Both the position numbers and the translations under genes were made by a program. Of a stretch of DNA of 64,000 nt, positions 23,015 to 63,041 are shown in pieces (the first letter of the stretch is position 1; each line of letters starts with the position of its first letter). This stretch comes from a virus, in the UHGV virus genome UHGV-1421865, one strand, 5' to 3'. Under the pieces are notes generated by a model. The model was not told the origin of the DNA, searched no databases, and saw nothing but the letters and a program-made list of their open reading frames with translations.

Positions 23015-23371
23015 TTATTTAGTGTTGCCGTCGGTTGTATCGTCTTCGGTGTGTTTGTTTATATAAGTGCCGATTTCTTTCGACGCTAAATTGATAGCTT
23101 CCGATGTTTGTTTTGTATCAAGTTCTTTATAAGGAGGATCGGAATATGCCACAACACCGGGCTTCCCTACCCATAGGTACCATTTATTGTCTGTTTTACC
23201 TAATAGAAATTGGAATTCGTCGTTATAGGTGTATTCTATTTTCTGAAACTTTGAGTCATCATCCAATTCTGAGACTGTGTTACCTTGTTCGTCGTATATA
23301 TTAAAGACAACATCTCGTGTATTATCGGCTGCCGACTCTTGTAGTTTAATAAAAGAATATATTGATTTCAT
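23015..23371 (-). CDS. Hypothetical protein
   Basis: 118-aa ORF. Confidence 0.45.
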   Translation of the reverse strand: MKSIYSFIKLQESAADNTRDVVFNIYDEQGNTVSELDDDSKFQKIEYTYNDEFQFLLGKTDNKWYLWVGKPGVVAYSDPPYKELDTKQTSEAINLASKEIGTYINKHTEDDTTDGNTK

Positions 23372-52510: not shown

Positions 52511-54901
52511 ATGTTATCGTTCCCCAATGGTCTAAATGTAGGCGGTGTCAATATGCACCCAGAAGGCAAGTCGCAAGCGACGAAAGTAAAAACACAGAAC
52601 GTAAAGGTTCCTATGCAGTCGGCGTTGGAGCGTCTTCGCGCTGTGAATATCAATATGAATCCTTATATTAAAACCAGTCTTTATGACAGTCAATACGTCG
52701 ATATTACATCAAATACAGAATATACACCACAATCAATACTTCAAAGCGGTAGTAATAGACCCGGTGACCCATTTATAGAGAACCCGTTTACAGAGCCTCA
52801 ACGCTTCATTGCCGGAATGAACAGATACCGTTTTGTATATAATGCTAAATTGAAACAACTCGTCGACGCTGGTTTATTAAAAGATTCCAAAACGCCACAG
52901 GCGCGGTATGTAGAAAGCGGGCCGAATACGATAGTAACATCTATATTTAATCCTCTTTATTGTGTACAGGTTCGCGGTATCGCACCGAATGTGCCCCTAC
53001 TCGACACACATAAGTCCGACGGTGTATCGGTCGCCGATAATATATCAAATTGTACTATCCGAGAACTTGTCGGTCTATCGCAGAAGAGATCGTCGGTACT
53101 GGGACAGGCACGTTATAAGTTCGCGGATTTCATGTACTGTTACGATTTAGGTAAATTTGCCAATAACCATCTTATAACACTGAGGAAGTTCGCTCACCCT
53201 GTCGGCGATAATATCTTTAAGTACACATCGGGTAAGCACAGAAAAAATACCAGAATGGATAACGGACAAGATGTCGCTCGTCTTGTTACCTGGTTCGGAA
53301 CAGAAGATAACAAACTAGAAAATATCTTAAGATACAGTTATAAAGCAACATGGAAACCCTTGAATTCAGAAATCCAAGAGATCGATACCGACTCAGAGAG
53401 CCAGGACAGAGGCATTGTCGGTTATATCGGTAACTCTATCAATGCGGCACACAATACCTACCAAGGCGGTGATTACGTGTCTGGTAAGAGCGTCTGGACT
53501 GATTTAGGTAGCTGGGTGATGAAAGCTACACCGTTGAGTAAGTTACTTAATACAGAGCCACACGGTACAGCAAACGACGCAGTACTTAGAAATTACGACA
53601 GTAATAAAGTATACACACCGAAAGATACGGTACAGAGTACGCATATCTACGAAGGTAAATTAGAAATGTCACAAGACATCACGTTGGTTTTTCGTTATAA
53701 GCTACGGTCGTACGACAATATCAATCCGAAATCGGCATTTTTGGACCTTATCGGTAATATATTAGAATTAACCTACCGACGAGGACATTTCTGGGGTGGT
53801 TCTAGAAAAATGATAGGTCCGCCTCAAAATATGGCGGTATACAAGAAGGTGAACGCTTTTATCGATAACAGCTTTGATAAATTAGGTGGTTTCGCCGCCG
53901 CTTTGGGTAACGGTACATTAGACTTGGGAAGTGTTGTCGCGTCAATCAGCTCCGCCATAACATCGGGTGCCGGTAAGGTTGTTGATGCCGCATCGAAGGC
54001 TGCGTCGGGTATCGCGTCCGGAAAAGTGAATATCGTACAGTCTATCTTCAGTGGTCTAAATAATATAAATAACAAATTCGGTGTATCGCATGCCTTAAAG
54101 GGACAGTTAAAGGCTGCATTGGGACGCCCTGCACTGTACGCGATGAATTCCTTACTGAGCGGTGATAACGTCGGTCTATGGCACCTTACTATCGGTAATC
54201 CTAAGAATCCTATCGCCGCTATCGGTAACCTTATATTAGAAGACTCTACCATAGAACATACCGGGCCGTTGGGTATCGATGATTTCCCTACTGAGATTAA
54301 AGTAACGGTGAAATTAAAGAACGCAAAACCTCGCGACCTTACAGAAATCAGTCGCATGTACACCCACGGTGTTAATTCTATTTATATGTCGAACGCTCGT
54401 AATAAACTCGGTGACTTTTATAGTTATAGTGGTTTCGACGAAGATAAATTAGACCAAGCACAAGCCAATGCACATGCCGCGGCGGTGCGGGCAGAAAGAA
54501 GTCGTGCTAAAGATGCAGCGTCCGTCGCAAAGAGTGCAACCGATGCACAAAAGAATGCCGACAGTGTAAATGCGGCATCGGGAACACCTCAAAAAACAAA
54601 GGATGTAAAACGACAGAATCAGCAACAATCACCGGTACAAACCCCCGACGACGGTCAACAAACACCGGTACAGGACAGTAAAGAAACAAAATCAGCCGAT
54701 AGTGCAGCAGAAACCGCCGATGTCGCCGTAGCAAAAGAATTAGATGCAGCATACGAAAAGGCCGATGATTTAGCTGTGAACGACGTAGATACATTTGATG
54801 ACATTGACCCTGAAATAACTAGTAAGAATAATGAGTTACACCATCAAGGGGGTTACGAACGTGCGATAGAACTTCGACAAAATATCGATGAGATCGCTTG
54901 A
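52511..54901 (+). CDS. Large virion protein of about 796 aa with a Gly/Ala/Ser-rich segment and a coiled C-terminus
   Basis: The track starts this ORF at a TTG. I prefer the ATG at 52511, which gives MLSFPNG... Confidence 0.55.
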   Translation: MLSFPNGLNVGGVNMHPEGKSQATKVKTQNVKVPMQSALERLRAVNINMNPYIKTSLYDSQYVDITSNTEYTPQSILQSGSNRPGDPFIENPFTEPQRFIAGMNRYRFVYNAKLKQLVDAGLLKDSKTPQARYVESGPNTIVTSIFNPLYCVQVRGIAPNVPLLDTHKSDGVSVADNISNCTIRELVGLSQKRSSVLGQARYKFADFMYCYDLGKFANNHLITLRKFAHPVGDNIFKYTSGKHRKNTRMDNGQDVARLVTWFGTEDNKLENILRYSYKATWKPLNSEIQEIDTDSESQDRGIVGYIGNSINAAHNTYQGGDYVSGKSVWTDLGSWVMKATPLSKLLNTEPHGTANDAVLRNYDSNKVYTPKDTVQSTHIYEGKLEMSQDITLVFRYKLRSYDNINPKSAFLDLIGNILELTYRRGHFWGGSRKMIGPPQNMAVYKKVNAFIDNSFDKLGGFAAALGNGTLDLGSVVASISSAITSGAGKVVDAASKAASGIASGKVNIVQSIFSGLNNINNKFGVSHALKGQLKAALGRPALYAMNSLLSGDNVGLWHLTIGNPKNPIAAIGNLILEDSTIEHTGPLGIDDFPTEIKVTVKLKNAKPRDLTEISRMYTHGVNSIYMSNARNKLGDFYSYSGFDEDKLDQAQANAHAAAVRAERSRAKDAASVAKSATDAQKNADSVNAASGTPQKTKDVKRQNQQQSPVQTPDDGQQTPVQDSKETKSADSAAETADVAVAKELDAAYEKADDLAVNDVDTFDDIDPEITSKNNELHHQGGYERAIELRQNIDEIA

Positions 54902-54914
54902 TTTAGAAGAAGTC

Positions 54915-55070
54915 AGAAAATCTGCCCTCTAACGCACGATTTTTCTTTGACCTTGGTACTACTAAGGTCGCTACATTTGAGTGCGCCAGAGAGCCTAAAA
55001 AGTGCCTTTACGTGGACGTCAGATATTTACACATCAGTATGCAAAACAGAAACGTCAAAATAACCAACCC
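54915..55070 (+). repeat. Conserved element, copy 7; the strong terminator at 55082 follows
   Basis: ctgccctctaacgcacgatttttctttgaccttggtactactaaggtcgctacatttgagtgcgccagagagcctaaaaagtgcctttacgtggacgtc...cagtatgcaaaacagaaacgtcaaaataacc. Confidence 0.85.
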
Positions 55071-55081
55071 AACATAACAAA

Positions 55082-55126
55082 AATGCCTGTCGAAGGAACT
55101 TGTTGATTCCTTTAGACAGGCATTTT
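55082..55126 (+). terminator. Strong hairpin plus T-run terminator after element copy 7
   Basis: aaaatgcctgtc...gacaggcatttttatatttt. Confidence 0.6.
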
Positions 55127-55159
55127 TATATTTTGTTGTTTGTCACAGATATAAAGCTA

Positions 55160-55320
55160 TAAAAACTTGCCCTCTAACGCACGATTTTTCTTTGACCTTG
55201 GTGTTGGTAAGGTCAACTAATTTGAGTGCGTCAGAGGGGCTAAAAAGTGCCTTTACGGACGTGTGATGATTCTGTACGTCGGTGTACAAAACAGAAACCA
55301 CCCAATCAGCCCCAATATAT
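55160..55320 (+). repeat. Conserved element, copy 8, in tandem with copy 7; a hairpin follows
   Basis: cttgccctctaacgcacgatttttctttgaccttggtgttggtaaggtcaactaatttgagtgcgtcagaggggctaaaaagtgcctttacggacgtg...gtacaaaacagaaaccacccaatc. Confidence 0.85.
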
Positions 55321-55522
55321 AACAAAAATGTCTGCCGAGGAACGAACAAGAAACCCTCGACAGACAAATAATAGCAATTCTTAAGTCAGGATAAGTAATA
55401 ACTTTCCTAACACCCATGATGTTGTTATTAGTCATCTAGATATACGTTGATCTATATCAGTTTTACGTGATAATGGTACGATTCTATTGCCTCTGCAGCG
55501 ACAATAGACATTCTCATTTTAG

Positions 55523-55595
55523 TACGGCCACTGGGATTCAAACCCAGGTAGTCCCTTTAGAAGAGGGATATTCTATTCAATTGAATTATAGCCGC
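55523..55595 (-). tRNA. tRNA-Arg(TCT)
   Basis: Hand fold: acceptor GCGGCTA/TGGCCGT with two G-U pairs, D stem ATTC/GAAT, anticodon arm TCCCT-cttctaa-AGGGA, T arm CTGGG-tttgaat-CCCAG. Confidence 0.65.
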
Positions 55596-55604
55596 ATGTA
55601 AGTG

Positions 55605-55703
55605 TGGTATCTACAAGAATTGAACTTGTGACACACGGATTTTCAGTCCCACGCTCTGGTCAACTGCGTTGACTTACTTTGTCACCAACTGAGCTACATC
55701 ACC
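55605..55703 (-). pseudogene. Degenerate tRNA-Phe(GAA)-like locus with a 26-nt hairpin inserted in the D-loop
   Basis: Has GTAGCTCAGTTGGT...AGAGC, a CTGAAAA anticodon loop and a T arm ACAAG-ttcaatt-CTTGT. The acceptor strands and the anticodon stem do not pair. Confidence 0.35.
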
Positions 55704-55705
55704 GA

Positions 55706-55781
55706 TGGTTGCCTTGCAAGGATTCGAACCTCGACTATTTGAACCAAAATCAAATGTGCTAAACCATTACACCACAAGGCA
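55706..55781 (-). tRNA. tRNA-Gln(TTG), CCA encoded
   Basis: Acceptor TGCCTTG/CAAGGCA, anticodon arm TTTGA-ttttggt-TCAAA, T loop ttcgaat, 3' ACCA. Confidence 0.7.
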
Positions 55782-55811
55782 AGACAATTATTGTGTACTA
55801 TACACAATCAG

Positions 55812-55885
55812 TCACGCCGGTGGGACTCGAACTCACAACTCCTTGCTCCCAAAGCAAGTACCTTAACCGATTAGGCTACAGCGTG
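55812..55885 (-). tRNA. tRNA-Pro(TGG)
   Basis: Anticodon arm CTTGC-tttggga-GCAAG and T loop ttcgagt; the acceptor has one wobble pair. Confidence 0.65.
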
Positions 55886-56022
55886 GGATCTTATAGTGTT
55901 CATGACCACATATAAGATCTGTACGATGAAAGGCTACACATCGCCATGTAAGATTTGTATTTTATACAAATCACCGACCGTTAGGCTATATTTTTATAAA
56001 AAATAGCTGTCGGGCACTGTCG

Positions 56023-56109
56023 CGGAAGGTGCAAGATTCGAACTTGCGGTACAGTTACCTGTACATCTCCTTAGCAGGGAGACGGTTTAAGCCACTCACC
56101 CAACCTTCC
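56023..56109 (-). tRNA. tRNA-Ser(GCT), class II
   Basis: Acceptor GGAAGGT/ACCTTCC, anticodon arm TCTCC-ctgctaa-GGAGA, long variable arm, T arm GCAAG-ttcgaat-CTTGC. Confidence 0.8.
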
Positions 56110-56114
56110 TAAAA

Positions 56115-56195
56115 ATAGTCCCAGGCCAGGATTCGAACCTGAATTTCGTCTCCAATGAGACGTGTATTAGCCTTTATACTAACTGAGTAATATAG
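56115..56195 (-). pseudogene. tRNA-like remnant: a T arm is present, but there is no foldable anticodon arm or 5' acceptor
   Basis: caggTTCGAATcctg T arm; the central segment forms a cgtctc-attg-gagacg mini-hairpin instead of an anticodon arm. Confidence 0.3.
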
Positions 56196-56270
56196 TTGCG
56201 GGAGGGGGACTCGAACCCAACCGATCTTCAGCTTATGAGGCTGACGAGATGCCATCTTCTCTATCCCGCG
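56196..56270 (-). tRNA. Initiator-type tRNA-fMet(CAT)
   Basis: Starts CGCGGGA and ends TCCCGCAA, giving a C1-A72 mismatch as in bacterial tRNA-fMet. Anticodon arm is TCAGC-ctcataa-GCTGA. Confidence 0.65.
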
Positions 56271-56280
56271 ATATTTTGAT

Positions 56281-56580
56281 TTAGTTTTCCATTTTTGGTT
56301 TATAAGATACTGTCTTAATTTCTTCACCTTCAAAAGCATAGCAATTAACATCACAATCAGAAGCCAGCATGTATTCACTGTATACATTAGATAAACCTTC
56401 AATACCCAAAATACCGTCTTCTAATTGAAAGTAAGAAGTGCTGGTTTCGTACCATCTATGACGGTTTATATCAATGTTACTTGCTAATTGTGTTTCGTAG
56501 TCAATTACACTTTCTGCATCGTCTATATAATAGAGTTCTTCAGAATTATTTATTCGTTCTATTGCTTCTTTTAGTTTCAT
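56281..56580 (-). CDS. Hypothetical protein
   Basis: 99-aa ORF. Confidence 0.4.
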   Translation of the reverse strand: MKLKEAIERINNSEELYYIDDAESVIDYETQLASNIDINRHRWYETSTSYFQLEDGILGIEGLSNVYSEYMLASDCDVNCYAFEGEEIKTVSYKPKMEN

Positions 56581-56586
56581 AATTAA

Positions 56587-56770
56587 ATTGAATTAAAAAC
56601 AAATGTCGTCATGCCAATTGCTTAACATATCACTACGGAATTCTTTCGCATCATCTAAATACTCAGACAAAAACGAAGACACTTCCTTAAAGTTGCTTAT
56701 GTCACCATTAAAGGGTACGTTAAGTACATCTTGACAAAATCTAACGGCAGCTTTTTGTCTTTCTGTTGTC
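56587..56770 (-). CDS. Small hypothetical protein of about 60 aa
   Basis: Hand translation gives MTTERQKAAVRFCQDVLNVPFNGDISNFKEVSSFLSEYLDDAKEFRSDMLSNWHDDICF. Confidence 0.3.
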
Positions 56771-56773
56771 ATA

Positions 56774-56846
56774 AGTTCGCTCGCTGGAACTCGAATCCAG
56801 GACTCCTTGATTAAAAGTCAAGTGCTCTACCAACTGAGCTACGAGC
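56774..56846 (-). tRNA. tRNA-Lys(TTT)
   Basis: Acceptor TCGCTCG/CGAGCGA, D arm GCTC-agttggtag-AGC, anticodon arm CTTGA-cttttaa-TCAAG, T arm CTGGA-ttcgagt-TCCAG. Confidence 0.8.
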
Positions 56847-56867
56847 GATTCTATAAACTATACAAGT

Positions 56868-56941
56868 TGCGGACAATGCAGGATTCGAACCTGCGACCTA
56901 CTGATTAACAGTCAGCCGCTCTAACCATCTGAGCTAAATGT
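56868..56941 (-). tRNA. tRNA-Asn(GTT)
   Basis: Anticodon loop ctgttaa, D arm GCTC-agatggtta-GAGC, T arm GCAGG-ttcgaat-CCTGC, discriminator G. Confidence 0.75.
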
Positions 56942-56955
56942 CCATACTCTATTAT

Positions 56956-57027
56956 AGAGCTTCCTGTCAGAGTCGAACTGACAACCTCTTCATTACAAGT
57001 GAAGCGCACTGCCATTGTGCTAAGGAA
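56956..57027 (-). tRNA. tRNA-Thr(TGT)
   Basis: Acceptor GCTTCCT/AGGAAGC, anticodon arm CTTCA-cttgtaa-TGAAG, T arm GTCAG-ttcgact-CTGAC. Confidence 0.8.
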
Positions 57028-57147
57028 GCGAATGCTTCCAGTATATCACGTTAGTGACATTAAGGAAGCGAATGCTTCCAGTATATCACGTTAGTGACAT
57101 TAAGGAAGCGAATGCTTCCAGTATATCACGTTAGTGACATTAAGGAA
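57021..57147. repeat. 40-bp tandem direct repeat, 3.2 copies, starting inside the 5' end of tRNA-Thr
   Basis: Unit aggaagcgaatgcttccagtatatcacgttagtgacatta, three times and perfect. Each unit holds the palindrome ggaagc-gaat-gcttcc and a TATACT (-10-like) on the tRNA strand. Confidence 0.85.
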
Positions 57148-57215
57148 GCAGGTGTAGTCTAAATTAGACTTTGATTGTGGTGTAAAATCACGCTAATTAA
57201 ACTACATTCATTGAG

Positions 57216-57290
57216 GGTGTCCTATGGGATTCGAACCCATGACCTTCAGAACCACAATCTGACGTTCTAACCGTCTGAACTAAGGACAAC
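57216..57290 (-). tRNA. tRNA-His(GTG) with an encoded G-1
   Basis: Anticodon arm TCAGA-ttgtggt-TCTGA, D arm GTTC-agacggtta-GAAC, T arm ATGGG-ttcgaat-CCCAT. The extra 5' G pairs with discriminator C73, a His-specific feature. Confidence 0.7.
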
Positions 57291-57388
57291 ATGATGGTGG
57301 AAAAACGACTGCGCCCCACCTACGCAAGGTCTTCAAAGACCACCGACCGTGTTTTATAGTTAACTATAAAAGTAATCAGGTACTGTCG

Positions 57389-57488
57389 TGGACCAGGTAG
57401 GACTTGAACCTACGACTCTGGAAAACAAACTAGAGAAAGGAGGTTAAACTAGTGTGAATTCGGCTCTGGCCATCTGAGCTACTGGTCC
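57389..57488 (-). pseudogene. Interrupted or intron-like tRNA gene: acceptor, D and T arms are canonical, but the anticodon and variable region is 49 nt
   Basis: GGACCAG-TA-GCTC-agatggcca-GAGC and GTAGG-ttcaagt-CCTAC-CTGGTCC-A. No 17-nt anticodon arm can be folded. The insert carries an actag/ctagt stem and, on the opposite strand, AAGGAGGT followed by GTG then TGA. Confidence 0.45.
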
Positions 57489-57582
57489 GGTTGACGGTCA
57501 AACGCTCCACACCGTCGGGTGGATGTCTGTACTAAACAGACAACAAACAGTATGCTTGAATCAGAGGCCGTTGTGCTTATTG

Positions 57583-57657
57583 ACAGTGTTATAGGATTCG
57601 AAACTACATCTCTTGATTCAAAACATCAAGGCTCTACCAATCTTTGAGCTAGACACC
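57583..57657 (-). pseudogene. tRNA-like locus with a Lys-type anticodon arm; the acceptor does not pair
   Basis: D arm GCTC-aaagattggta-GAGC and anticodon arm CTTGAT-gttttga-ATCAAG are fine; the T stem and acceptor are aberrant. Confidence 0.3.
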
Positions 57658-57864
57658 GCGCATGTAGTTTTTCTATGCCCACATAAACTACAAAAATGTT
57701 CTGTTTGCTATGTATTCTTTGAACACGTAGTGTTCATACGTTGAACAGCTGTCTGTTTGAGGTTAATTCTGTGCACAGAAACATAGCCTTAACATGGGTC
57801 TTTACAATATGATTTGCAACGCAATACGATTCGTACTAAGCACGACACCAGTATTGTTCTATTT

Positions 57865-57898
57865 ATAATAATAGCGAACTTTGTGAGGTAAATCAGCG
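57865..57898 (-). promoter_or_regulatory. Sigma70-like promoter with the conserved spacer, upstream of the tRNA block
   Basis: On the minus strand: cTGATTtacctcacaaagttcgcTATTAT. Confidence 0.5.
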
Positions 57899-57923
57899 TA
57901 ATTTACAAGAAAAATCAGTAAAG

Positions 57924-58271
57924 TCAATCATTAAATTCATAATTTAGTACCTTACGGACTTTTTTATAAGTGCTAATTACTATCTGGTCGTTATAGACCC
58001 AATAGGTTTCCTCTTCATTGTGAGGGGGGATTCCACTGTTTATTTTCTTTAGATAAAAGAGAATGAATATCAGCAGCGTAACGAAACAAAGGTAGTGTAC
58101 GTTACCGATAAGCAACAACAGTATATGCCACAGTTTAACTCGGAAATTCCTATTAGGGTACCTGTGTACATTAAAACCTCGGTGGTCTACATCGAAATCG
58201 TAGTACTGTGTATTGAACAACACACGTAGTTCTATTAGAAACAGAACAATACCTGGTACATACCACATCAT
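57924..58271 (-). CDS. Membrane protein with two or three TM helices
   Basis: Hydrophobic N-terminus MMWYVPGIVLFLIELRVLF and LLLIGNVHYLCFVTLLIFILFYL. Confidence 0.45.
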   Translation of the reverse strand: MMWYVPGIVLFLIELRVLFNTQYYDFDVDHRGFNVHRYPNRNFRVKLWHILLLLIGNVHYLCFVTLLIFILFYLKKINSGIPPHNEEETYWVYNDQIVISTYKKVRKVLNYEFND

Positions 58272-58302
58272 ATTTTAAGAACTTAATTAAACTTCAACGT
58301 AT

Positions 58303-58500
58303 TTAGTCATAGCCTTTATAGACTCTTTTGAACTTGTGAACGTCACAGTCTTCAAAGACGACTCTGTTTCTGTGTCTGATGTACCGATTCAATTGATTCT
58401 TCAACCATTTTCTTTCACCGGCCTTGATGTACTTTCTTTTCTTGTGGTCTTTATTGTAAGGCAATAAAGTTGAACACAGTTGTAGTCTACGTAATGCCAT
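58303..58500 (-). CDS. Small basic protein of 65 aa
   Basis: Lys/Arg-rich: KRKYIKAGERKWLKNQLNRYIRHRNR. Confidence 0.35.
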   Translation of the reverse strand: MALRRLQLCSTLLPYNKDHKKRKYIKAGERKWLKNQLNRYIRHRNRVVFEDCDVHKFKRVYKGYD

Positions 58501-58505
58501 ATCTA

Positions 58506-58862
58506 CTAATATAATCCAGCATGTCGCTTAATAGGTTCATAATACAACTCGTCTACTCGTTCGTTGCTGTACTTATCGTTTATTGCGACAACCAGCTTAC
58601 CATCTTTTTCTGAAACAACATACTCAGCAATGGTCCGACCGAACACATAAAGTACGATGTGTAGGTTTTTATAGTTCGAATGATCGAACATCACTTCAAT
58701 TTCATCGAGCAGGGCACATTCATTATGATACAGATACGGCAATGTTTCTACGAAATCGATGATGCTATCGGTATTGGTGAATTTTGAATATGCGCAAAAC
58801 ATAACAAACTCGTCTCTGTCACTATCGACAGGATAACCTGACTTCATTTCTGTGTACAACAT
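58506..58862 (-). CDS. Hypothetical protein
   Basis: 118-aa ORF with a conserved-spacer promoter immediately upstream. Confidence 0.5.
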   Translation of the reverse strand: MLYTEMKSGYPVDSDRDEFVMFCAYSKFTNTDSIIDFVETLPYLYHNECALLDEIEVMFDHSNYKNLHIVLYVFGRTIAEYVVSEKDGKLVVAINDKYSNERVDELYYEPIKRHAGLY

Positions 58863-58904
58863 ACTGTGTAATTTTTACTGGTCTTGTTTCTAACTTGATT
58901 TGTT

Positions 58905-58941
58905 ATATATTATATAGTCTACTTTATGAATAAAATCAACT
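58905..58941 (-). promoter_or_regulatory. Sigma70-like promoter with the conserved spacer
   Basis: On the minus strand: TTGATTttattcataaagtagacTATATAAT. Confidence 0.55.
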
Positions 58942-59111
58942 TATGTAGTACCAGAAGCGGGACTCATCGTACATGAAAATCTAAATCATTACATTTAGTT
59001 TTCACTTCTTGCTTCAATCTATCACTACTAATTGTAATCAATATCACAATCCCATAGGAGGATAGTCCACAAGCGTAAATTCGGTACTACGAATACCTAC
59101 TAGTTTTGTTC

Positions 59112-60251
59112 TTATACTGCACTTATCCTACGACCCTCGTAGAGGATATTTAGTGCTGCATTGTAATCTCTATCATGGTTTGTGCCACATTTAGGACAAC
59201 ACCAATAACGGTCTTGTAACTTCAAGTCATTGTGTACATAACCACATTGTGAACAAGTCTTTGAGCTGGGATAAAATCGATCAATAAGTACAACCTTCTT
59301 GTCGTTTTGTAAAGCCTTAGTTGATAGCACAGTCTTGAACTTAAAAAATCCAACTTCTTGGATTGCCTTGGCAAGTTTATGATTTTTCATCATCCCTTAT
59401 ACATTCAAGTCTTCCATGTAGACAGTATCATACTGTGACAATAACTCATTTACTACAGAATGTATATAGTTTTCCTTCTTATTCGTAATAGTCTCAAACA
59501 CTTTCGCTATCCTCTTACACTGTTTATAGAAGTTGTTTGAACCTTTACGTTTCCTCGACAACTGTCGTTGTAGCTTTACAAGTCGCTTTTCTTCTTTATT
59601 ATAGAAATGTTTGTTGTCAAATGTAGTGTCATCTGATGTTATAACAAAATCCTTAACACCTAGATCGATACCGACATCACGACCTGTTTTATTGAACTTA
59701 GTAAGTTCGTTATCATTCATATCAATAAGAATAGATAAGAAGAAATTCCCACTCTTGGTTTTCGATAAGGTTGCACTTCTTATATTGTTCTTATATCTAC
59801 GCAATCTTGCCAAGTACAAATCAGAACATCTAAATGATATGTCTTTTAATTTGGTTGTAAGTGTTATCTTACGTGTCACAAATGTATTTTTCTTGGATAT
59901 TGTACCTTTCGGGAACAACGCAGATTGGTTATTCTTCTTCGACTTGAACTTTGGAAACCCATTATGTTGTTTGAAGAATTTTTGGTAGCCACTATCCATT
60001 TGTCTAATAGCTTGATTCATTATCTTTGTATTCTGTTCCTTCAACCAAGCATATTGTTCATCTTTCAATAACTCATGATGAAAATGTTTGGATAGTTGAG
60101 TTGTTCCAAGATTTGTTTTATCTGTGTTATACGCTTCTTGTTTACGAGCAAGCATGTAGTTATAAACAAAACGATAACACCCAAGCACACTATTTAGTAC
60201 CTGTTCTTGTGTTTTATTTGGATATAACCTTATTTTGATTGCTCGTAACAT
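59112..60251 (-). pseudogene. tnpB: IS200/IS605-family tnpB (OMEGA / RNA-guided nuclease), interrupted by an in-frame TAA
   Basis: N-terminus MLRAIKIRLYPNKTQEQVLNSVLGCYRFVYN and GIDLGVKDF (RuvC-I) ...MEDLNV, then TAA, then in the same frame GMMKNHKLAKAIQEVGFFKF...CSQCG...CPKCG...HDRDYNAALNI (zinc finger plus RuvC-III). Hand translation confirms a single in-frame stop where a Lys codon is expected. Confidence 0.8.
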
Positions 60252-60293
60252 TGATTTCCTTATTTAACTACTTGATTGTTTACTGTTACTATT

Positions 60294-60382
60294 TGGTGCC
60301 CGAAGTGGGGGTCGAACCCACACGAACATTACTGTTCAAGAGATCCTAAATCTCTCATGTATACCAATTTCATCATTCGGGC
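60294..60382 (-). tRNA. tRNA-Leu(TAG), class II, CCA encoded
   Basis: Acceptor GCCCGAA/TTCGGGC, anticodon arm AGAGA-tttagga-TCTCT, variable-arm hairpin GAACA-gtaa-TGTTC, T arm GTGGG-ttcgacc-CCCAC, 3' ACCA. Confidence 0.8.
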
Positions 60383-60635
60383 AACTAAGTATGGTTATAA
60401 CGTTACCAACGCAGCTCACTAAGACTAATTCGCGACTTAGCAAATAATGATTACTCCGAGATTTGGAATGTATAATTACTCTATCTTCTACGGCTGTATG
60501 ATAGAAACCTAATTAGTTTAGGATACTCTGGGTCCCAATGTGCCCAAATTTTGCATACTCTTATCGTACGTTATATATGTTAATAGTATGCGAAAAACAT
60601 ATACACGCCAGTTTCTAGTGACTTGGGTACTGTTG

Positions 60636-60709
60636 TGGACCAGGTAGGGATTGAACCTACGACCTTCGCCTTATGAGGGCGCCGCTCTGTACCACTGAGC
60701 TACAAGTCC
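60636..60709 (-). tRNA. tRNA-Met/Ile(CAT), elongator type
   Basis: Anticodon loop ctcataa; the T arm and 3' acceptor are the same as in the interrupted tRNA at 57389. The acceptor has one mismatch. Confidence 0.55.
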
Positions 60710-60714
60710 TTATT

Positions 60715-60790
60715 CAAGACAGTATAGGATTCGAACCTATGACGTTGGTATAATCACCTTAAGCATTCGTCCACTCTGCCAAGCTGTCTT
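60715..60790 (-). pseudogene. tRNA-like locus: good T arm and acceptor, but the D and anticodon arms do not fold
   Basis: ATAGG-ttcgaat-CCTAT, acceptor AGACAGC/ACTGTCT; no canonical anticodon arm. Confidence 0.3.
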
Positions 60791-60809
60791 GTTATAAATG
60801 TGTATTAGT

Positions 60810-61193
60810 TTAGTAAGTAAAAGTAATACTATAGATATAATCGTCGTTATAGTTTTCAAGAATCTCTTGAAATACAGTTAAGACTTTCTTCACATCCTTA
60901 AAATAATTATTATTGTATTTTGACGGTACAAATAAGAAATGATCTGTTGTCGGTAACAATTCAGTACACATGCTGTGATCTTCTAATACAAGTGTACAAT
61001 CCTCAACTAAATACTCAATTTCTTCTTTTGTAATTGGTGTATTATGAATACAATTTTCTCCGTACGGATGTCCAGCGAAATACCTATAAAGAAAGTTAAT
61101 ATCAGTAAGAAGACTAATATCTTCATATTCAGAACCCATACCCGTACGGTGTTCTTCTTTAAGTCCTCTACCAATCTCAATTTTCAAACTCAT
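60810..61193 (-). CDS. Hypothetical protein
   Basis: 127-aa ORF immediately downstream of tRNA-Leu(TAA). Confidence 0.5.
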   Translation of the reverse strand: MSLKIEIGRGLKEEHRTGMGSEYEDISLLTDINFLYRYFAGHPYGENCIHNTPITKEEIEYLVEDCTLVLEDHSMCTELLPTTDHFLFVPSKYNNNYFKDVKKVLTVFQEILENYNDDYIYSITFTY

Positions 61194-61221
61194 AACCTAC
61201 TTGATTGTTTACTGTTACTAT

Positions 61222-61308
61222 TTGGTACCCGAAGTGGGGGTCGAACCCACATGGTCTACTGACCAAAAGATTTTAAATCTTTCATGTATACCGATTTCAT
61301 CATTCGGG
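61222..61308 (-). tRNA. tRNA-Leu(TAA), class II, CCA encoded
   Basis: A paralog of the tRNA at 60294 including about 30 bp of 3' flank. Anticodon arm AAAGA-tttaaaa-TCTTT. Confidence 0.75.
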
Positions 61309-61469
61309 CATTGTATATACTATAATCCGTCCCCAACCGCTATTATAGTATATGATTCATTACAAATTTATGGCTTCTGACTGGACGGTTTTGTAATTAC
61401 GCAGGAAATGTTCTTCATCTTAGGAAGACAAATCCCGAAACTGAATGTATTTATACATCAGCGAGTAGT

Positions 61470-61540
61470 ATTCAGGCTGGGACTTGAACCCAGATTGGAT
61501 GTGTATAAGACATCTAGCCTAACCTTTAACTGACCTGAAC
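61470..61540 (-). tRNA. tRNA-like, probably Ile(TAT); the D arm is poorly resolved
   Basis: Anticodon arm GATGT-cttatac-ACATC, T arm CTGGG-ttcaagt-CCCAG, acceptor TTCAGGT/GCCTGAA. Confidence 0.45.
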
Positions 61541-61594
61541 GTGCAACCTACTTTAGAGTAGGTCTTGATTGCGTTACATACTTGATGTGTTACA

Positions 61595-61630
61595 TATCTA
61601 AAATAGTACACTTTATGAGAAAAATCAATG
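61595..61630 (-). promoter_or_regulatory. Sigma70-like promoter with the conserved spacer
   Basis: On the minus strand: TTGATTtttctcataaagtgtacTATTTTAG. Confidence 0.5.
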
Positions 61631-61716
61631 TAGGCTCTAAAAATTTATTGCCATATTGTTTTGTTGTAACTCACATTCATAATAATAGTCTATATTAGTA
61701 GCAAAATCAATACAGT

Positions 61717-62511
61717 CTACACATTTTGTTGTTTTGTATCGAAATAAATTGCCTTCACAACACCAACGTATTGCTGTGCAAGCCGGTACGCATGCTCACT
61801 AACGGTCTTTTCGTGCTTCAAAAATTCCTCCGTAGTCAAACTACCCAACCAGTCGAGTGACCACATCATATTTGATGCACTATACGTTACAACATGCTTA
61901 CGTTCATCATCTTCATTTACAACAAAGGTTATAAACGACTTATTACTGTCGATAACGGCATCGCCGCAGATAATATCGTCAGAACCTAAAACAACGTCCC
62001 CGTAGATTACAACATCATCTTCGACGTAAGTAAATCCAGTAAGCATAGCGTGTCCGTAAATGTTGACATTGTCACCGACATATACATCACCGCTAAGACT
62101 AGCATTACCGTGGATATGTGCGCGGTTACTGACAGTAACTCTATCTGATATATTAGCATTTTCATATACCTGTACAAAATACTGTAGGATTACATCACCG
62201 AATACCCTTGCATTGTCTTTAATAATAACATTCTCACTACATTTTACACTGCCGCCGATATACGCATTGCCGAAAACACAAACATTATCTCTTAACGTCG
62301 CATTTTTCTCTACCTTAGCATCGTCGTACACCTTGGCGTCATTGTATAGCCAACATAAGCCGTCCTGGGATAGATTTTCCTCTGTTTGAATCCACCCACC
62401 CTTATCACCCGACTTGACATCGTTGAAGTCTTTTACAGCCTGAACGCGGTACAGCGTACGACCTTCATGCCGAATAGTCTCGTCTACCAGCATTACATAT
62501 TTTCCTCCCAT
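61717..62511 (-). CDS. Hexapeptide / beta-helix repeat protein of 264 aa; paralog of the ORF at 44624..45076
   Basis: Long run of approximately pentapeptide or hexapeptide repeats ([YV]xG[ND]A/V...). Confidence 0.55.
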   Translation of the reverse strand: MGGKYVMLVDETIRHEGRTLYRVQAVKDFNDVKSGDKGGWIQTEENLSQDGLCWLYNDAKVYDDAKVEKNATLRDNVCVFGNAYIGGSVKCSENVIIKDNARVFGDVILQYFVQVYENANISDRVTVSNRAHIHGNASLSGDVYVGDNVNIYGHAMLTGFTYVEDDVVIYGDVVLGSDDIICGDAVIDSNKSFITFVVNEDDERKHVVTYSASNMMWSLDWLGSLTTEEFLKHEKTVSEHAYRLAQQYVGVVKAIYFDTKQQNV

Positions 62512-62684
62512 ATCTTATTATTTAATTTCAAAATCGTTCAATTGAACGAGTAAATCACTCATAATGCTATCTAATTCACTAAACGCGTCCGGTGAAATTA
62601 GTCCCCTATTATCTTGTAAACAGACATTTAGTTGTTGTGCACTTTCTTTTATTGAGTTGAATAGCCCTTGTTTGTACATATTAA

Positions 62685-63041
62685 TCACTTGAATTTTGGT
62701 TTATATGCATCATCTATATGACAATTATCGAACATAAAACGATGGTATTTTACATTGCTGACGTCCCACTTAGACAAGTCACAGCTGAATTCTTTACAAC
62801 CAGAAAACATTTTGTCCATGTTCGTAACGTTAGAGACGTCCCATTCGTCGATTTTGATGTTTCTAATACCAACCCAAACAAATAAAAACGACATGTCTGT
62901 AATCAACGACGTATCAATGAAATTGAGATCAGCATCTGGACCTTGTCGCTTAATTTCTTCCATTATAATAGAAGTAAGTTCATCTTTTGATGTAGGCGTC
63001 AATGTTGCCGATTTTGTATTTGATGTGATATGTATTGCCAT
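62685..63041 (-). CDS. BspA-type leucine-rich-repeat (DUF285-like) protein, paralog 1
   Basis: WDVSNVTNMDKMFSGC...DLSKWDVSNV repeats. Confidence 0.65.
   Translation of the reverse strand: MAIHITSNTKSATLTPTSKDELTSIIMEEIKRQGPDADLNFIDTSLITDMSFLFVWVGIRNIKIDEWDVSNVTNMDKMFSGCKEFSCDLSKWDVSNVKYHRFMFDNCHIDDAYKPKFK

What the first reader, a model, noticed from the sequence alone, without database searches (positions are those of the whole stretch)
55500..61545. tRNA array mixing about 13 intact tRNAs with at least 5 interrupted or degenerate tRNA-like genes
Clean hand-folds were obtained for Arg(TCT), Gln(TTG), Pro(TGG), Ser(GCT), fMet(CAT), Lys(TTT), Asn(GTT), Thr(TGT), His(GTG, with G-1), Leu(TAG), Leu(TAA) and Met/Ile(CAT). 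Other loci are aberrant. 57389-57488 has perfect acceptor, D and T arms but a 49-nt segment where the 22-nt anticodon-plus-variable region should be; it is also a paralog of the intact CAT tRNA at 60636. 55605-55703 is Phe-like with a 26-nt hairpin inserted into the D-loop and non-pairing acceptor strands. 56115-56195 has a T arm only. 57583-57657 and 60715-60790 are partial. These could be intron-containing tRNAs, tRNA-derived regulatory RNAs, or decaying duplicates. The cluster is also punctuated by protein genes and the IS element.
Basis: seen in the sequence. Interest (0 to 1): 0.6.

Follow-up and report, generated by a model that had tools for sequence, protein, structure and literature searches.

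The report
Phage tRNA array with anticodon-less tRNA-like genes
A giant phage from human mouth metagenomes carries 13 normal tRNA genes plus five odd ones, and at least two of the odd ones are conserved tRNA-shaped RNAs with no anticodon, one of which displays a copy of the ribosome's anti-Shine-Dalgarno tail.

Summary
On the minus strand, 55523-61540, there are 13 canonical tRNA genes and five aberrant tRNA-like loci. The region also holds small ORFs and a TnpB (IS605-family) element. The sequence is identical in independent oral-metagenome assemblies.

The five loci are not one class.
- X1 (57389-57488) is present in 7 diverged relatives. All 26 base pairs are kept and 5 pairs show compensatory changes. 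Its anticodon arm is replaced by a long hairpin with a near-invariant 15-nt loop, UUUA(A/C)CCUCCUUUCU. In the window this loop contains the 11-nt 16S rRNA 3' tail sequence ACCUCCUUUCU.
- X5 (60717-60788) is conserved in 6 relatives. It has a 4-bp hairpin with a variable tetraloop in place of the anticodon arm.
- X3 (56118-56188) is similar in form, but its orthologs are too close to test.
- X2 is a tRNA-Phe with a conserved 26-nt D-loop hairpin. X4 is a second tRNA-Lys(UUU) lineage. Both belong to structurally conserved lineages, but the window copies carry stem mismatches.

The intron reading is rejected for X1. Function is unproven. The anti-SD mimic idea is an inference only.

The parts
55523..61540 (-). 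Whole tRNA array: 13 canonical tRNAs, 5 aberrant tRNA-like loci, small ORFs and a TnpB element
57389..57488 (-). X1: tRNA-like RNA gene. The acceptor, D and T arms are intact. The anticodon arm is replaced by a 41-nt imperfect hairpin whose 15-nt loop UUUAACCUCCUUUCU contains the 16S 3'-tail (anti-SD) 11-mer
   Evidence: RF00005 42.7 bits with a 45-nt insert. Fold z = -3.66. Six orthologs aligned: 26/26 pairs kept, 5 compensated, 0/500 shuffles as high. A seventh ortholog is in L055. The 11-mer equals the oligo printed in PMC7797042
60717..60788 (-). X5: tRNA-like RNA gene derived from a type II tRNA. It has a 7-bp acceptor stem, a D arm and a T arm. A 4-bp hairpin with a variable tetraloop stands in place of the anticodon arm. 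It lies 7 nt upstream of the CAT tRNA
   Evidence: 24.8 bits. Six orthologs: 99.2% of cells paired, 2 compensated acceptor pairs. D arm resembles tRNA-Ser(TGA) and T arm resembles tRNA-Tyr. Absent from L023 and L055
56118..56188 (-). X3: tRNA-like locus with a 6-bp stem and 4-nt loop (AUUG) where the anticodon arm should be. The acceptor stem is 5/7 paired
   Evidence: ARAGORN 'tRNA-??? anticodon (tt)'. 28.0 bits, below the gathering score of 29. Orthologs exist only at 95-97% identity, in L026 and L024. Absent from L022 and L055
55605..55703 (-). X2: tRNA-Phe(GAA) with a 26-nt hairpin insert in the D loop. The window copy has 2 acceptor and 2 anticodon-stem mismatches
   Evidence: Orthologs in L026 and L022 keep the insert and fold as perfect cloverleaves. 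L055 shares the mismatched 3' strand AGATACC
57583..57658 (-). X4: second, divergent tRNA-Lys(UUU)-like gene. The window copy has C7.A66 and U53.C61 mismatches
   Evidence: Seven orthologs: 141/147 cells paired, and all 5 anticodon-stem pairs are compensated between two subtypes with UUU kept
55523..55595 (-). tRNA-Arg(TCT)
   Evidence: 58.7 bits; missed by ARAGORN
55709..55781 (-). tRNA-Gln(TTG)
55812..55885 (-). tRNA-Pro(TGG)
56023..56109 (-). tRNA-Ser(GCT)
56196..56270 (-). tRNA-Met(CAT), initiator-like (C1 opposite A72)
56776..56848 (-). tRNA-Lys(TTT)
56870..56943 (-). tRNA-Asn(GTT)
56958..57029 (-). tRNA-Thr(TGT)
57216..57289 (-). tRNA-His(GTG)
60297..60382 (-). tRNA-Leu(TAG)
60636..60709 (-). 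tRNA with anticodon CAT (Met or Ile2); paralog of X1
   Evidence: The X1 model scores it at 50.7 bits
61226..61309 (-). tRNA-Leu(TAA), intronless here
   Evidence: The L022 ortholog carries a group I intron
61469..61540 (-). tRNA-Ile(TAT)
59112..60251 (-). TnpB (IS200/IS605-family OrfB) gene interrupted by an in-frame TAA near 59394-59396
   Evidence: Pfam PF12323, PF01385 and PF07282 on the two halves. Intact 379-aa copies in L002 and L022

Best explanation
This is the tRNA gene array of an uncultivated jumbo phage from human oral metagenomes. Its host probably does not use Shine-Dalgarno sequences and is likely a member of the Bacteroidota. The five aberrant loci fall into two groups.

(1) X1, X5 and probably X3 are tRNA-shaped RNA genes that cannot decode. 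They keep the acceptor, D and T arms, so the L-shaped body and elbow that tRNA-processing enzymes recognise are retained. They have lost the 7-nt anticodon loop.

Inferred mechanism: they are transcribed with the array, cut out by RNase P and the 3' processing and CCA machinery like tRNAs, and persist as stable small RNAs. X1 uses the tRNA body as a scaffold to present an invariant loop that copies the 16S rRNA 3' tail (ACCUCCUUUCU). The mechanism I consider most likely is that this loop pairs with extended SD sequences. In Flavobacteriales such sequences are essentially confined to rpsU, the gene for ribosomal protein bS21. Alternatively the loop competes for whatever binds the 16S tail.

(2) X2 and X4 belong to conserved variant tRNA lineages. 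X2 is a tRNA-Phe with a D-loop hairpin. X4 is a second tRNA-Lys(UUU) with an unusual anticodon loop. In this phage both copies carry disruptive stem mismatches and are probably impaired.

Shown: the structures, their conservation and the covariation. Inferred: expression, processing and every functional step.
For: X1: 6 aligned orthologs at 88-93% identity keep 26/26 pairs in every sequence. Five pairs have changes on both sides (four in the acceptor stem, one at the base of the long arm). No shuffle in 500 reached the observed values, and the slid-partner controls collapse to 24-50% paired. Substitutions fall in bulges, internal loops or as G-U wobbles, while 22 consecutive columns across the loop are invariant. 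A seventh variant in L055 keeps everything.

X1 is found in every relative that covers this region. No ORF of at least 40 aa overlaps it. The + strand reading of the SD-like sequence is followed only by 1-7 codon ORFs.

The 11-mer ACCUCCUUUCU is printed in PMC7797042 as the complement of the SD oligo AGAAAGGAGGU. PMC9976891 reports 9-13 bp SD-ASD helices that are specific to rpsU in Flavobacteriales.

None of 41 phage ORFs in the window has a GGAG-type SD. The nearest cultured relatives are Tenacibaculum, Chryseobacterium and Sphingomonas jumbo phages.

X5. X4. X2. Other anticodon-arm-less mini tRNA-likes occur in relatives.
Against: There are no expression or processing data.

Only 6-7 closely related sequences are available. 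Most covariation sits in the acceptor stem; the long arm has a single double change.

The match to the 16S tail was noticed after the fact. The host is unknown, so its 16S tail and rpsU leader were not examined.

No complementary target exists in the 64-kb window. The only match to AGAAAGGAGGT with up to 1 mismatch is X1's own antisense, and duplex energies of other sites are within the range of shuffled loops.

No bS21 gene was detected in the window or the fetched phage loci (L001-L029) by a weak tblastn test.

X1 was not found in IMG/VR or in 185,579 genomes.

X5 is missing from two relatives, so it is dispensable. X3 has no informative variation.
Confidence: 0.6

Rival explanations
1. All five loci are neutral wreckage. 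They are tRNA duplicates decaying in a highly recombinogenic array, with no function of their own.
For: The window copies of X2 and X4 carry stem mismatches. L025 holds a Gln/Phe fusion gene. X5 is absent from L023 and L055, and X3 from L022 and L055. A 40-nt tandem duplication of the tRNA-Thr 5' end varies in copy number. The array order differs among relatives.
Against: X1 keeps 100% of its pairs with 5 compensated pairs and an invariant loop. The X5 acceptor stem and the X4 anticodon stem are compensated. The X2 orthologs in L026 and L022 are perfect cloverleaves that retain the insert.
Confidence: 0.12
2. X1 and X2 are intron-containing tRNA genes. The extra segment is removed after transcription to give a working tRNA.
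For: Relatives do have interrupted tRNA genes. L022 has a group I intron in tRNA-Leu(UAA) (48.7 bits, E 8e-10). L002 has an HNH-ORF insert in a tRNA. The Lys and CAT tRNAs of L022 carry 40-nt two-hairpin inserts in the anticodon loop. Deleting the 26-nt X2 insert recreates a normal D loop.
Against: The extra 27 nt of X1 and the 26-nt X2 insert are far too short for a group I core, and no such core is detected. No single deletion in X1 gives more than 3 of 5 anticodon-stem pairs. No bacterial or phage mechanism is known for splicing such short inserts (own knowledge). The X1 loop is the most conserved part, which is the opposite of what is expected of an intron.
Confidence: 0.06
3. The anticodon-less elements act only in cis. 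They are RNase P / RNase Z cutting signals that punctuate the polycistronic transcript of tRNAs and small ORFs, and the excised RNA has no role.
For: X5 sits 7 nt upstream of the CAT tRNA in all six genomes that have it. X3 lies between tRNA-Met and tRNA-Ser, with 7-8 nt gaps. ORFs are interleaved on the same strand. Acceptor-T minihelices are sufficient RNase P substrates (own knowledge).
Against: This does not explain the invariant 15-nt loop and compensated long arm of X1. Neighbouring tRNAs would already supply cutting sites.
Confidence: 0.15
4. The variant tRNAs and tRNA-likes are counter-defence tools. X4 (and X2) are nuclease-resistant versions of tRNAs that host anticodon nucleases target. 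The anticodon-less molecules are uncleavable decoys for tRNA-binding defence proteins.
For: tRNA-Lys(UUU) is a classic anticodon-nuclease target, and phage tRNAs with altered anticodon loops are proposed to evade such nucleases (PMC10264068, listed). X4 keeps UUU but has unusual loop flanks, G32/G37 or C32/A37/C38, alongside a canonical tRNA-Lys.
Against: No defence system or nuclease was identified here. The window copy of X4 has a broken G53-C61 pair. The hypothesis gives no reason for the 16S-tail sequence in X1.
Confidence: 0.12

Closest known systems
tRNA gene arrays of jumbo and T4-like phages, including the small stable 'species 1/2' RNAs (rnaC, rnaD) encoded in the T4 tRNA cluster (own knowledge; the literature search for these failed on a term-length error)
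   Same: A dense same-strand cluster of tRNAs interleaved with small ORFs and mobile elements. Non-decoding stable RNAs with tRNA-like termini sit among the tRNA genes.
   Different: No sequence relation could be tested. X1 and X5 keep complete D and T arms and replace only the anticodon arm. X1 carries a 16S-tail sequence, which is not described for the T4 RNAs.
Virus-encoded non-aminoacylated tRNA-like RNAs (murine gammaherpesvirus 68 vtRNAs/TMERs) and cellular mascRNA (own knowledge)
   Same: The tRNA shape is used as a processing and stability module rather than for decoding.
   Different: Those are eukaryotic Pol III and RNase Z systems. There is no homology. The Rfam mascRNA match in the window (20.8 bits against a gathering score of 42.5) lies on tRNA-Gln, not on an aberrant locus.
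Bacterial pseudo-tRNA 'tRNA-Other' of Bacillus cereus (PMC3399842, listed)
   Same: A tRNA-like gene that does not function in translation yet has a regulatory effect.
   Different: It is chromosomal, not in a phage array. No 16S-tail loop is reported in that paper's abstract, the only part seen. No sequence comparison was made.
Phage tRNAs with altered anticodon loops that evade host anticodon nucleases (PMC10264068)
   Same: X4 is a second tRNA-Lys(UUU) with non-standard loop flanks next to a canonical copy.
   Different: Resistance was not tested. The window copy has stem defects.
SD/anti-SD biology of Bacteroidia: sequestered 16S 3' tail and rpsU autoregulation through an extended SD (PMC7797042, PMC9976891), and phage-encoded bS21 (PMC9723584)
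   Same: The X1 loop equals the 11-nt tail sequence ACCUCCUUUCU. The phage genes lack SDs, as in these hosts.
   Different: No phage RNA mimic of the 16S tail is described in the parts of those papers I read. The link is an inference only.
Group I intron in tRNA-Leu(UAA) (RF00028)
   Same: It is present in the orthologous tRNA-Leu(UAA) of relative L022.
   Different: The window's tRNA-Leu(UAA) is intronless, and none of the five aberrant loci contains a group I core.

Membership tests
Canonical tRNA (Rfam RF00005) | Acceptor, D and T arms with elbow nucleotides (GG in the D loop, TTCRANT T loop) | tested here: met
   Fully met by X1 and X5, where all pairs of these arms are kept. X2, X3 and X4 have the three arms, but their window copies carry 1-2 mismatches in them
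Canonical tRNA (Rfam RF00005) | 5-bp anticodon stem closed by a 7-nt loop with U33 and a 3-nt anticodon | tested here: not met
   X1: 45 nt replace 18 model positions. X3: 4-6 nt loop, ARAGORN 'anticodon (tt)'. X5: 4-bp stem plus tetraloop. The feature is met by X2 (GAA) and X4 (UUU)
Canonical tRNA (Rfam RF00005) | Score at or above the gathering threshold (29 bits) | tested here: inconclusive
   X1 42.7, X2 36.0 and X4 33.2 bits pass. X3 28.0 and X5 24.8 bits fail
Intron-containing tRNA gene (group I intron, RF00028) | Group I catalytic core within the insert | tested here: not met
   No Intron_gpI match at E<=1 in 55400-61700. A positive control exists in relative L022 (48.7 bits)
Intron-containing tRNA gene (any type) | Removing one contiguous segment restores a canonical cloverleaf | tested here: not met
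   X1: the best deletion gives 3 of 5 stem pairs. For X2, deleting the 26 nt does recreate a normal D loop, but no splicing mechanism is known
tmRNA | tRNA-like domain plus a tag-peptide reading frame | tested here: not met
   ARAGORN reports no tmRNA
Y RNA-like YrlA (RF02553) | Match to the covariance model; the tRNA-like module closed by a Ro-binding stem formed by the 5' and 3' ends | tested here: not met
   The only match is 22.5 bits against a gathering score of 69, at 56824-56898 on tRNA-Lys/Asn. In X1 the ends are in the acceptor stem
16S rRNA 3'-tail (anti-SD) mimic | Single-stranded display of the tail sequence ACCUCCUUUCU | tested here: met
   The 11-mer lies in the predicted 15-nt loop. 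10 of the 11 nt are invariant in 7 variants. The sequence matches the oligo in PMC7797042
16S rRNA 3'-tail (anti-SD) mimic | Binds an SD-bearing mRNA or a tail-binding ribosomal component | not testable with these tools
   No target in the window. The host genome is unknown
IS200/IS605-family TnpB element | OrfB_IS605 and zinc-ribbon domains in one intact ORF | tested here: not met
   The domains are present (PF12323, PF01385, PF07282), but the frame is broken by a TAA. Intact 379-aa homologs are found in relatives
Phage T4 species 1/2 stable RNAs | Sequence or structure homology to rnaC/rnaD | not tested

The most novel reading that the evidence does not exclude
X1 is a phage-made, tRNA-scaffolded mimic of the 16S rRNA 3' tail. 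In a Bacteroidota host, essentially only rpsU (ribosomal protein bS21) carries an extended SD. There X1 would pair with that SD, or occupy the pocket of bS21, bS18 and bS6 that holds the tail. Either action would change the bS21 content of ribosomes and hence start-site selection during infection. This would be a new way for a virus to reprogram translation initiation with an RNA. More broadly, this phage clade would hold several families of anticodon-less tRNA-like effector RNAs.
Probability: 0.15. Interest if true: 0.85.

Novelty: new variant of a known kind. Interest (0 to 1): 0.62.

Why it matters
Phage tRNA arrays are usually read as codon supplements or as spares against anticodon nucleases, and odd members are discarded as pseudogenes. 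Here, comparison of relatives shows that at least one odd member (X1), and probably a second (X5), is kept by selection as a structured RNA that cannot decode. X1 displays the sequence that defines SD recognition, in a phage whose own genes have no SD. If the mimic idea is right, it links phage small RNAs to the recently described bS21/anti-SD control of Bacteroidia ribosomes, and it is directly testable. If it is wrong, the clade still gives a compact natural set of tRNA-body variants: loss of the anticodon arm, a D-loop hairpin, and an insert at the acceptor/D junction. These are useful for studying what tRNA-processing enzymes tolerate.

Tried and rejected
- **Near-identical phage records.** There was no megablast hit in 50,697 phage genomes.
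- **Neighbouring ORFs against IMG/VR.** ORFs 60813-61193 and 58509-58862 gave nothing.
- **Exact X1 loop patterns.** These were absent from IMG/VR and from GTDB genomes.
- **Generalised pattern.** 'ACCTCCTTTCT + 15-35 nt + T arm' returned 25 genome hits, about the chance expectation. Only two overlapped a weak match to the X1 model. Both proved to be the 3' part of a tRNA lying next to a sequence that reads as a ribosome-binding site plus ATG on the other strand, which is typical of an integration site. Neither is X1-like.
- **SD-like sequence as a + strand ribosome-binding site.** Rejected: only 1-7 codon ORFs follow it.
- **SD-bearing gene at 23131.** Rejected: the site lies inside a minus-strand ORF.
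- **'tRNA-Stop(TTA)' called by ARAGORN in L022.** The alignment shows it is the Leu(TAG) ortholog with one stem substitution, so the call is probably a register artefact.
- **bS21 gene.** None was found with the E. coli S21 sequence as tblastn query. This is a weak test.
- **Bacteroides-type -7 promoter motif TAnnTTTG.** There are only four hits in the array on the gene strand, and only one is intergenic, so the search is uninformative.
- **Theta/HDV-like ribozymes.** These were considered for the inter-tRNA elements. There was no Rfam match, and the paper's text gave no usable motif.
- **Literature search for the T4 rnaC/rnaD RNAs.** It failed on a term-length error.

Full report
**What is there**

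All tRNA-type genes lie on the minus strand between 55523 and 61540. ARAGORN. The Rfam tRNA model gives 16 matches at or above its gathering score, and two more below it.

Thirteen are ordinary cloverleaves: Arg-TCT, Gln, Pro, Ser-GCT, initiator-like Met, Lys, Asn, Thr, His, Leu-TAG, a CAT tRNA, Leu-TAA and Ile-TAT.

Five are aberrant. I name them:
- X1, 57389-57488
- X2, 55605-55703
- X3, 56118-56188
- X4, 57583-57658
- X5, 60717-60788

Same-strand ORFs sit between the tRNA genes. So does a TnpB gene of the IS200/IS605 family, split by an in-frame TAA. Three descriptions need correcting. X3 has D and T arms plus a capped stem, not only a T arm. X4 is a complete cloverleaf. X5 is a complete four-helix molecule.

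**Source and reproducibility**

The window encodes a portal protein and a DNA polymerase. A 1110-aa protein has distant (23%) matches in Tenacibaculum, Chryseobacterium and Sphingomonas jumbo phages and in huge uncultured phages. No close phage genome exists in the collection.

Exact-protein look-ups found the same sequence, 99.98-100% identical over 54466-62862, in contigs of 187 kb and 28 kb from other samples. One is a human oral metagenome. The aberrant loci are therefore real sequence.

None of 41 long ORFs in the window has a GGAG-type Shine-Dalgarno motif. Their upstream regions are A-rich. Together with the relatives, this points to a Bacteroidota-type host. That is an inference; the host is not identified.

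**Relatives used for comparison**

A conserved 99-aa ORF inside the array recovered 15 related loci from viral and metagenome contigs of up to 325 kb, with 4-21 tRNAs per tRNA-bearing locus by ARAGORN. These lack the window-specific segments that hold X1, X4 and X5.

Homologs of two small ORFs next to X1 (84-90% identical) led to closer, still diverged genomes: L020, L022-L026, L028, L029 and L055. These carry orthologs of the aberrant loci.

**X1**

The acceptor, D and T arms are perfect. The anticodon arm is replaced by an imperfect hairpin: 3 bp, a 2x2 internal loop, 2 bp, a bulge, then 5 bp, closed by a 15-nt loop (z = -3.66).

In six aligned orthologs, every one of the 26 pairs is a standard pair in every sequence. 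Five pairs changed on both sides, four in the acceptor stem and one at the base of the long arm. None of 500 shuffles reached the observed values, and sliding the 3' partners drops pairing to 24-50%. Other substitutions sit in the internal loop or the bulge, or make G-U pairs. Twenty-two consecutive columns spanning the loop are invariant. A seventh variant (L055) conforms. X1 is present in every relative that covers the region.

X1 is not an intron-bearing tRNA. No group I core is detected, and no single deletion gives more than 3 of 5 anticodon-stem pairs.

The loop reads UUUA(A/C)CCUCCUUUCU. The window's 11-mer ACCUCCUUUCU is exactly the sequence printed in Jha et al. as the complement of the SD oligo AGAAAGGAGGU (PMC7797042). 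That is the 16S rRNA 3' tail with the anti-SD. A relic ribosome-binding site on the opposite strand is unlikely, because only 1-7 codon ORFs follow it and this phage's genes lack SD motifs.

**X5 and X3**

X5 has a 7-bp acceptor stem, a D arm like that of tRNA-Ser(TGA), and a T arm like that of tRNA-Tyr. In place of the anticodon arm it has a 4-bp hairpin whose tetraloop varies (ATTA, ATCA, ATGG).

Six orthologs keep 99.2% of cells paired, with two compensated acceptor pairs. The shuffle controls are weaker than for X1 (45-183 of 500), but the slid controls collapse. X5 always lies 7 nt upstream of the CAT tRNA, yet it is missing from L023 and L055. It is conserved but dispensable.

X3 has a 6-bp stem with a 4-nt loop. 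Only near-identical orthologs (95-97%) exist, and it is absent from L022 and L055, so selection cannot be judged.

Relatives hold further tRNA-likes with no anticodon arm at all: L028 1984-2048, L003 651-718, L005 10582-10648 and L011 81-147. Anticodon-less tRNA-shaped genes are therefore a recurring feature of this clade.

**X4 and X2**

X4 is a second tRNA-Lys(UUU)-like gene. Across seven orthologs 141 of 147 cells pair. All five anticodon-stem pairs are fully compensated between two subtypes (UUGAU/AUCAA against CCAGA/UCUGG), while the UUU is kept. Two relatives add a 14-nt insert after nucleotide 7. The window copy has C7.A66 and U53.C61 mismatches.

X2 is a tRNA-Phe(GAA) with a 26-nt hairpin insert in the D loop. 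The insert is conserved in L026, L022 and L055. The L026 and L022 copies fold by minimum free energy into perfect cloverleaves with the extra hairpin. The window and L055 copies combine the 5' strand GGUGAUG with the 3' strand AGAUACC, giving two mismatches. The window copy also has two anticodon-stem mismatches.

These two lineages are under structural selection. The window copies look impaired.

**How it most likely works**

Shown: the structures, their conservation, the covariation, and the identity of the X1 loop with the 16S tail.

Inferred: the elements are transcribed with the array and excised like tRNAs, because the parts that RNase P, 3' processing and CCA addition recognise are intact (established tRNA biology). 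They then persist as stable L-shaped RNAs.

For X1, I commit to a tRNA-scaffolded display of the anti-SD tail. The Fredrick laboratory papers report that Bacteroidia ribosomes sequester this tail in a pocket formed by bS21, bS18 and bS6. They also report that in Flavobacteriales essentially one gene, rpsU, has an extended SD of 9-13 bp (PMC9976891). Phage-encoded bS21 is known (PMC9723584). An X1 loop of 10-11 complementary nucleotides could therefore pair specifically with an rpsU-type leader, or compete for the tail pocket.

I put about 0.75 on X1 being a selected, structured, non-decoding RNA. I put about 0.15 on the anti-SD mechanism.

Against the mechanism:
- No target is found in the window.
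- No bS21 gene is found in the DNA held.
- X1 is not found outside this clade.
- The host is unknown, and there are no expression data.

**Rivals**

- Pure decay explains the window copies of X2 and X4, and possibly X3. It does not explain X1.
- Splicing is contradicted for X1. For X2 there is no known mechanism.
- A purely cis-acting role as processing punctuation fits the placement of X5 but not the invariant loop of X1.
- A counter-defence role (nuclease-resistant tRNA-Lys, decoys) is plausible for X4 in light of PMC10264068, but it is untested.

**Comparison and novelty**

Phage tRNA arrays, pseudo-tRNAs, non-decoding stable RNAs in the T4 tRNA cluster and viral tRNA-like RNAs are known kinds. 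A conserved tRNA body that carries the 16S-tail sequence in place of an anticodon was not found in the literature I could search. I rate it a new variant of a known kind. Interest is 0.62, limited by the small and shallow set of homologs and the lack of expression evidence.

Noticed in passing
window 60392-60516 (- strand); copies include L002 10303-10421 and 11839-11952, L013 7235-7358, L005 17107-17221: 'Element A' is a roughly 120-nt non-coding element that lies a few nt upstream of tRNA genes (Leu-TAG here; Tyr, Ser-TGA or His in relatives). Several relatives carry two or three copies. Sixteen copies aligned give 28 predicted pairs, 9 of them with compensatory changes, plus long invariant single-stranded stretches (ACAGCCGTAGA, TCTCGGAGTAAT, AGCTGCGTTGGTAACGT). 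There is no Rfam match. It looks like an undescribed structured RNA, possibly a ribozyme or a processing element.
   Followed up: partly
window 61318-61397 (- strand); relatives include L002 10438-10519: 'Element B' is about 80 nt and lies directly upstream of tRNA-Leu(TAA) here and of tRNA-His in relatives. It has two hairpins whose loops can pair (CCGTCC with GGACGG). The loop-loop pairing covaries: CCATCC/GGATGG and CCACCC/GGGTGG. It also contains the only intergenic TAnnTTTG motif of the array.
   Followed up: partly
window 57490-57560 (- strand): About 70 nt immediately upstream of X1 are almost invariant in L022 and L024. They can form a hairpin (GTCTGT/ACAGAC) and a pseudoknot-like pairing (GACGGT with ACCGTC). 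Related CGGTCGGTG motifs precede tRNA-His and tRNA-Pro.
   Followed up: no
window 59112-60251 and 58954-59123 (- strand): The TnpB gene has an in-frame TAA (LNV*GM), which is also present in L017 and L018. Relatives have intact 379-aa copies, sometimes two per locus. In several relatives, solo copies of the segment just 3' of TnpB (its presumed right end, where the TnpB guide RNA would be encoded) lie at or overlapping the 3' end of tRNA-Glu.
   Followed up: partly
window 57021-57149: A perfect 40-nt tandem repeat with 3.2 copies. Each unit starts with the first 9 nt of tRNA-Thr and contains the inverted repeat GCTTCC/GGAAGC. L017 has one unit fewer.
   Followed up: partly
L022 2775-2992; L002 10765-11655: Relatives have genuinely interrupted tRNA genes. 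L022 has a group I intron (48.7 bits, E 8e-10) in tRNA-Leu(UAA). L002 has a roughly 800-nt insert with an HNH endonuclease ORF in a tRNA whose anticodon loop reads CTTTAAA, so it may be a UAA suppressor.
   Followed up: partly
L022 7251-7362 and 3133-3240: Two different tRNA genes of one relative (Lys-UUU and the CAT tRNA) each carry a related two-hairpin insert of about 40 nt in the anticodon loop (GACAACAC..GTGTTGAATT..TTTGT..ACAAA). It was not found in any other locus held.
   Followed up: partly
L002 9129-9204; L005 9560-9635; L006 265-340; L008 335-410; L009 387-462: A very A+T-rich (24-29% GC) 76-nt tRNA of type I shape with anticodon UAA is conserved across several relatives alongside normal type II tRNA-Leu(UAA). 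Its amino-acid identity is unclear.
   Followed up: no
window, upstream of 41 ORFs: The phage genes lack Shine-Dalgarno motifs entirely. The only AGGA/AAGG match upstream of a start codon precedes TnpB. This points to a Bacteroidota-type host.
   Followed up: yes
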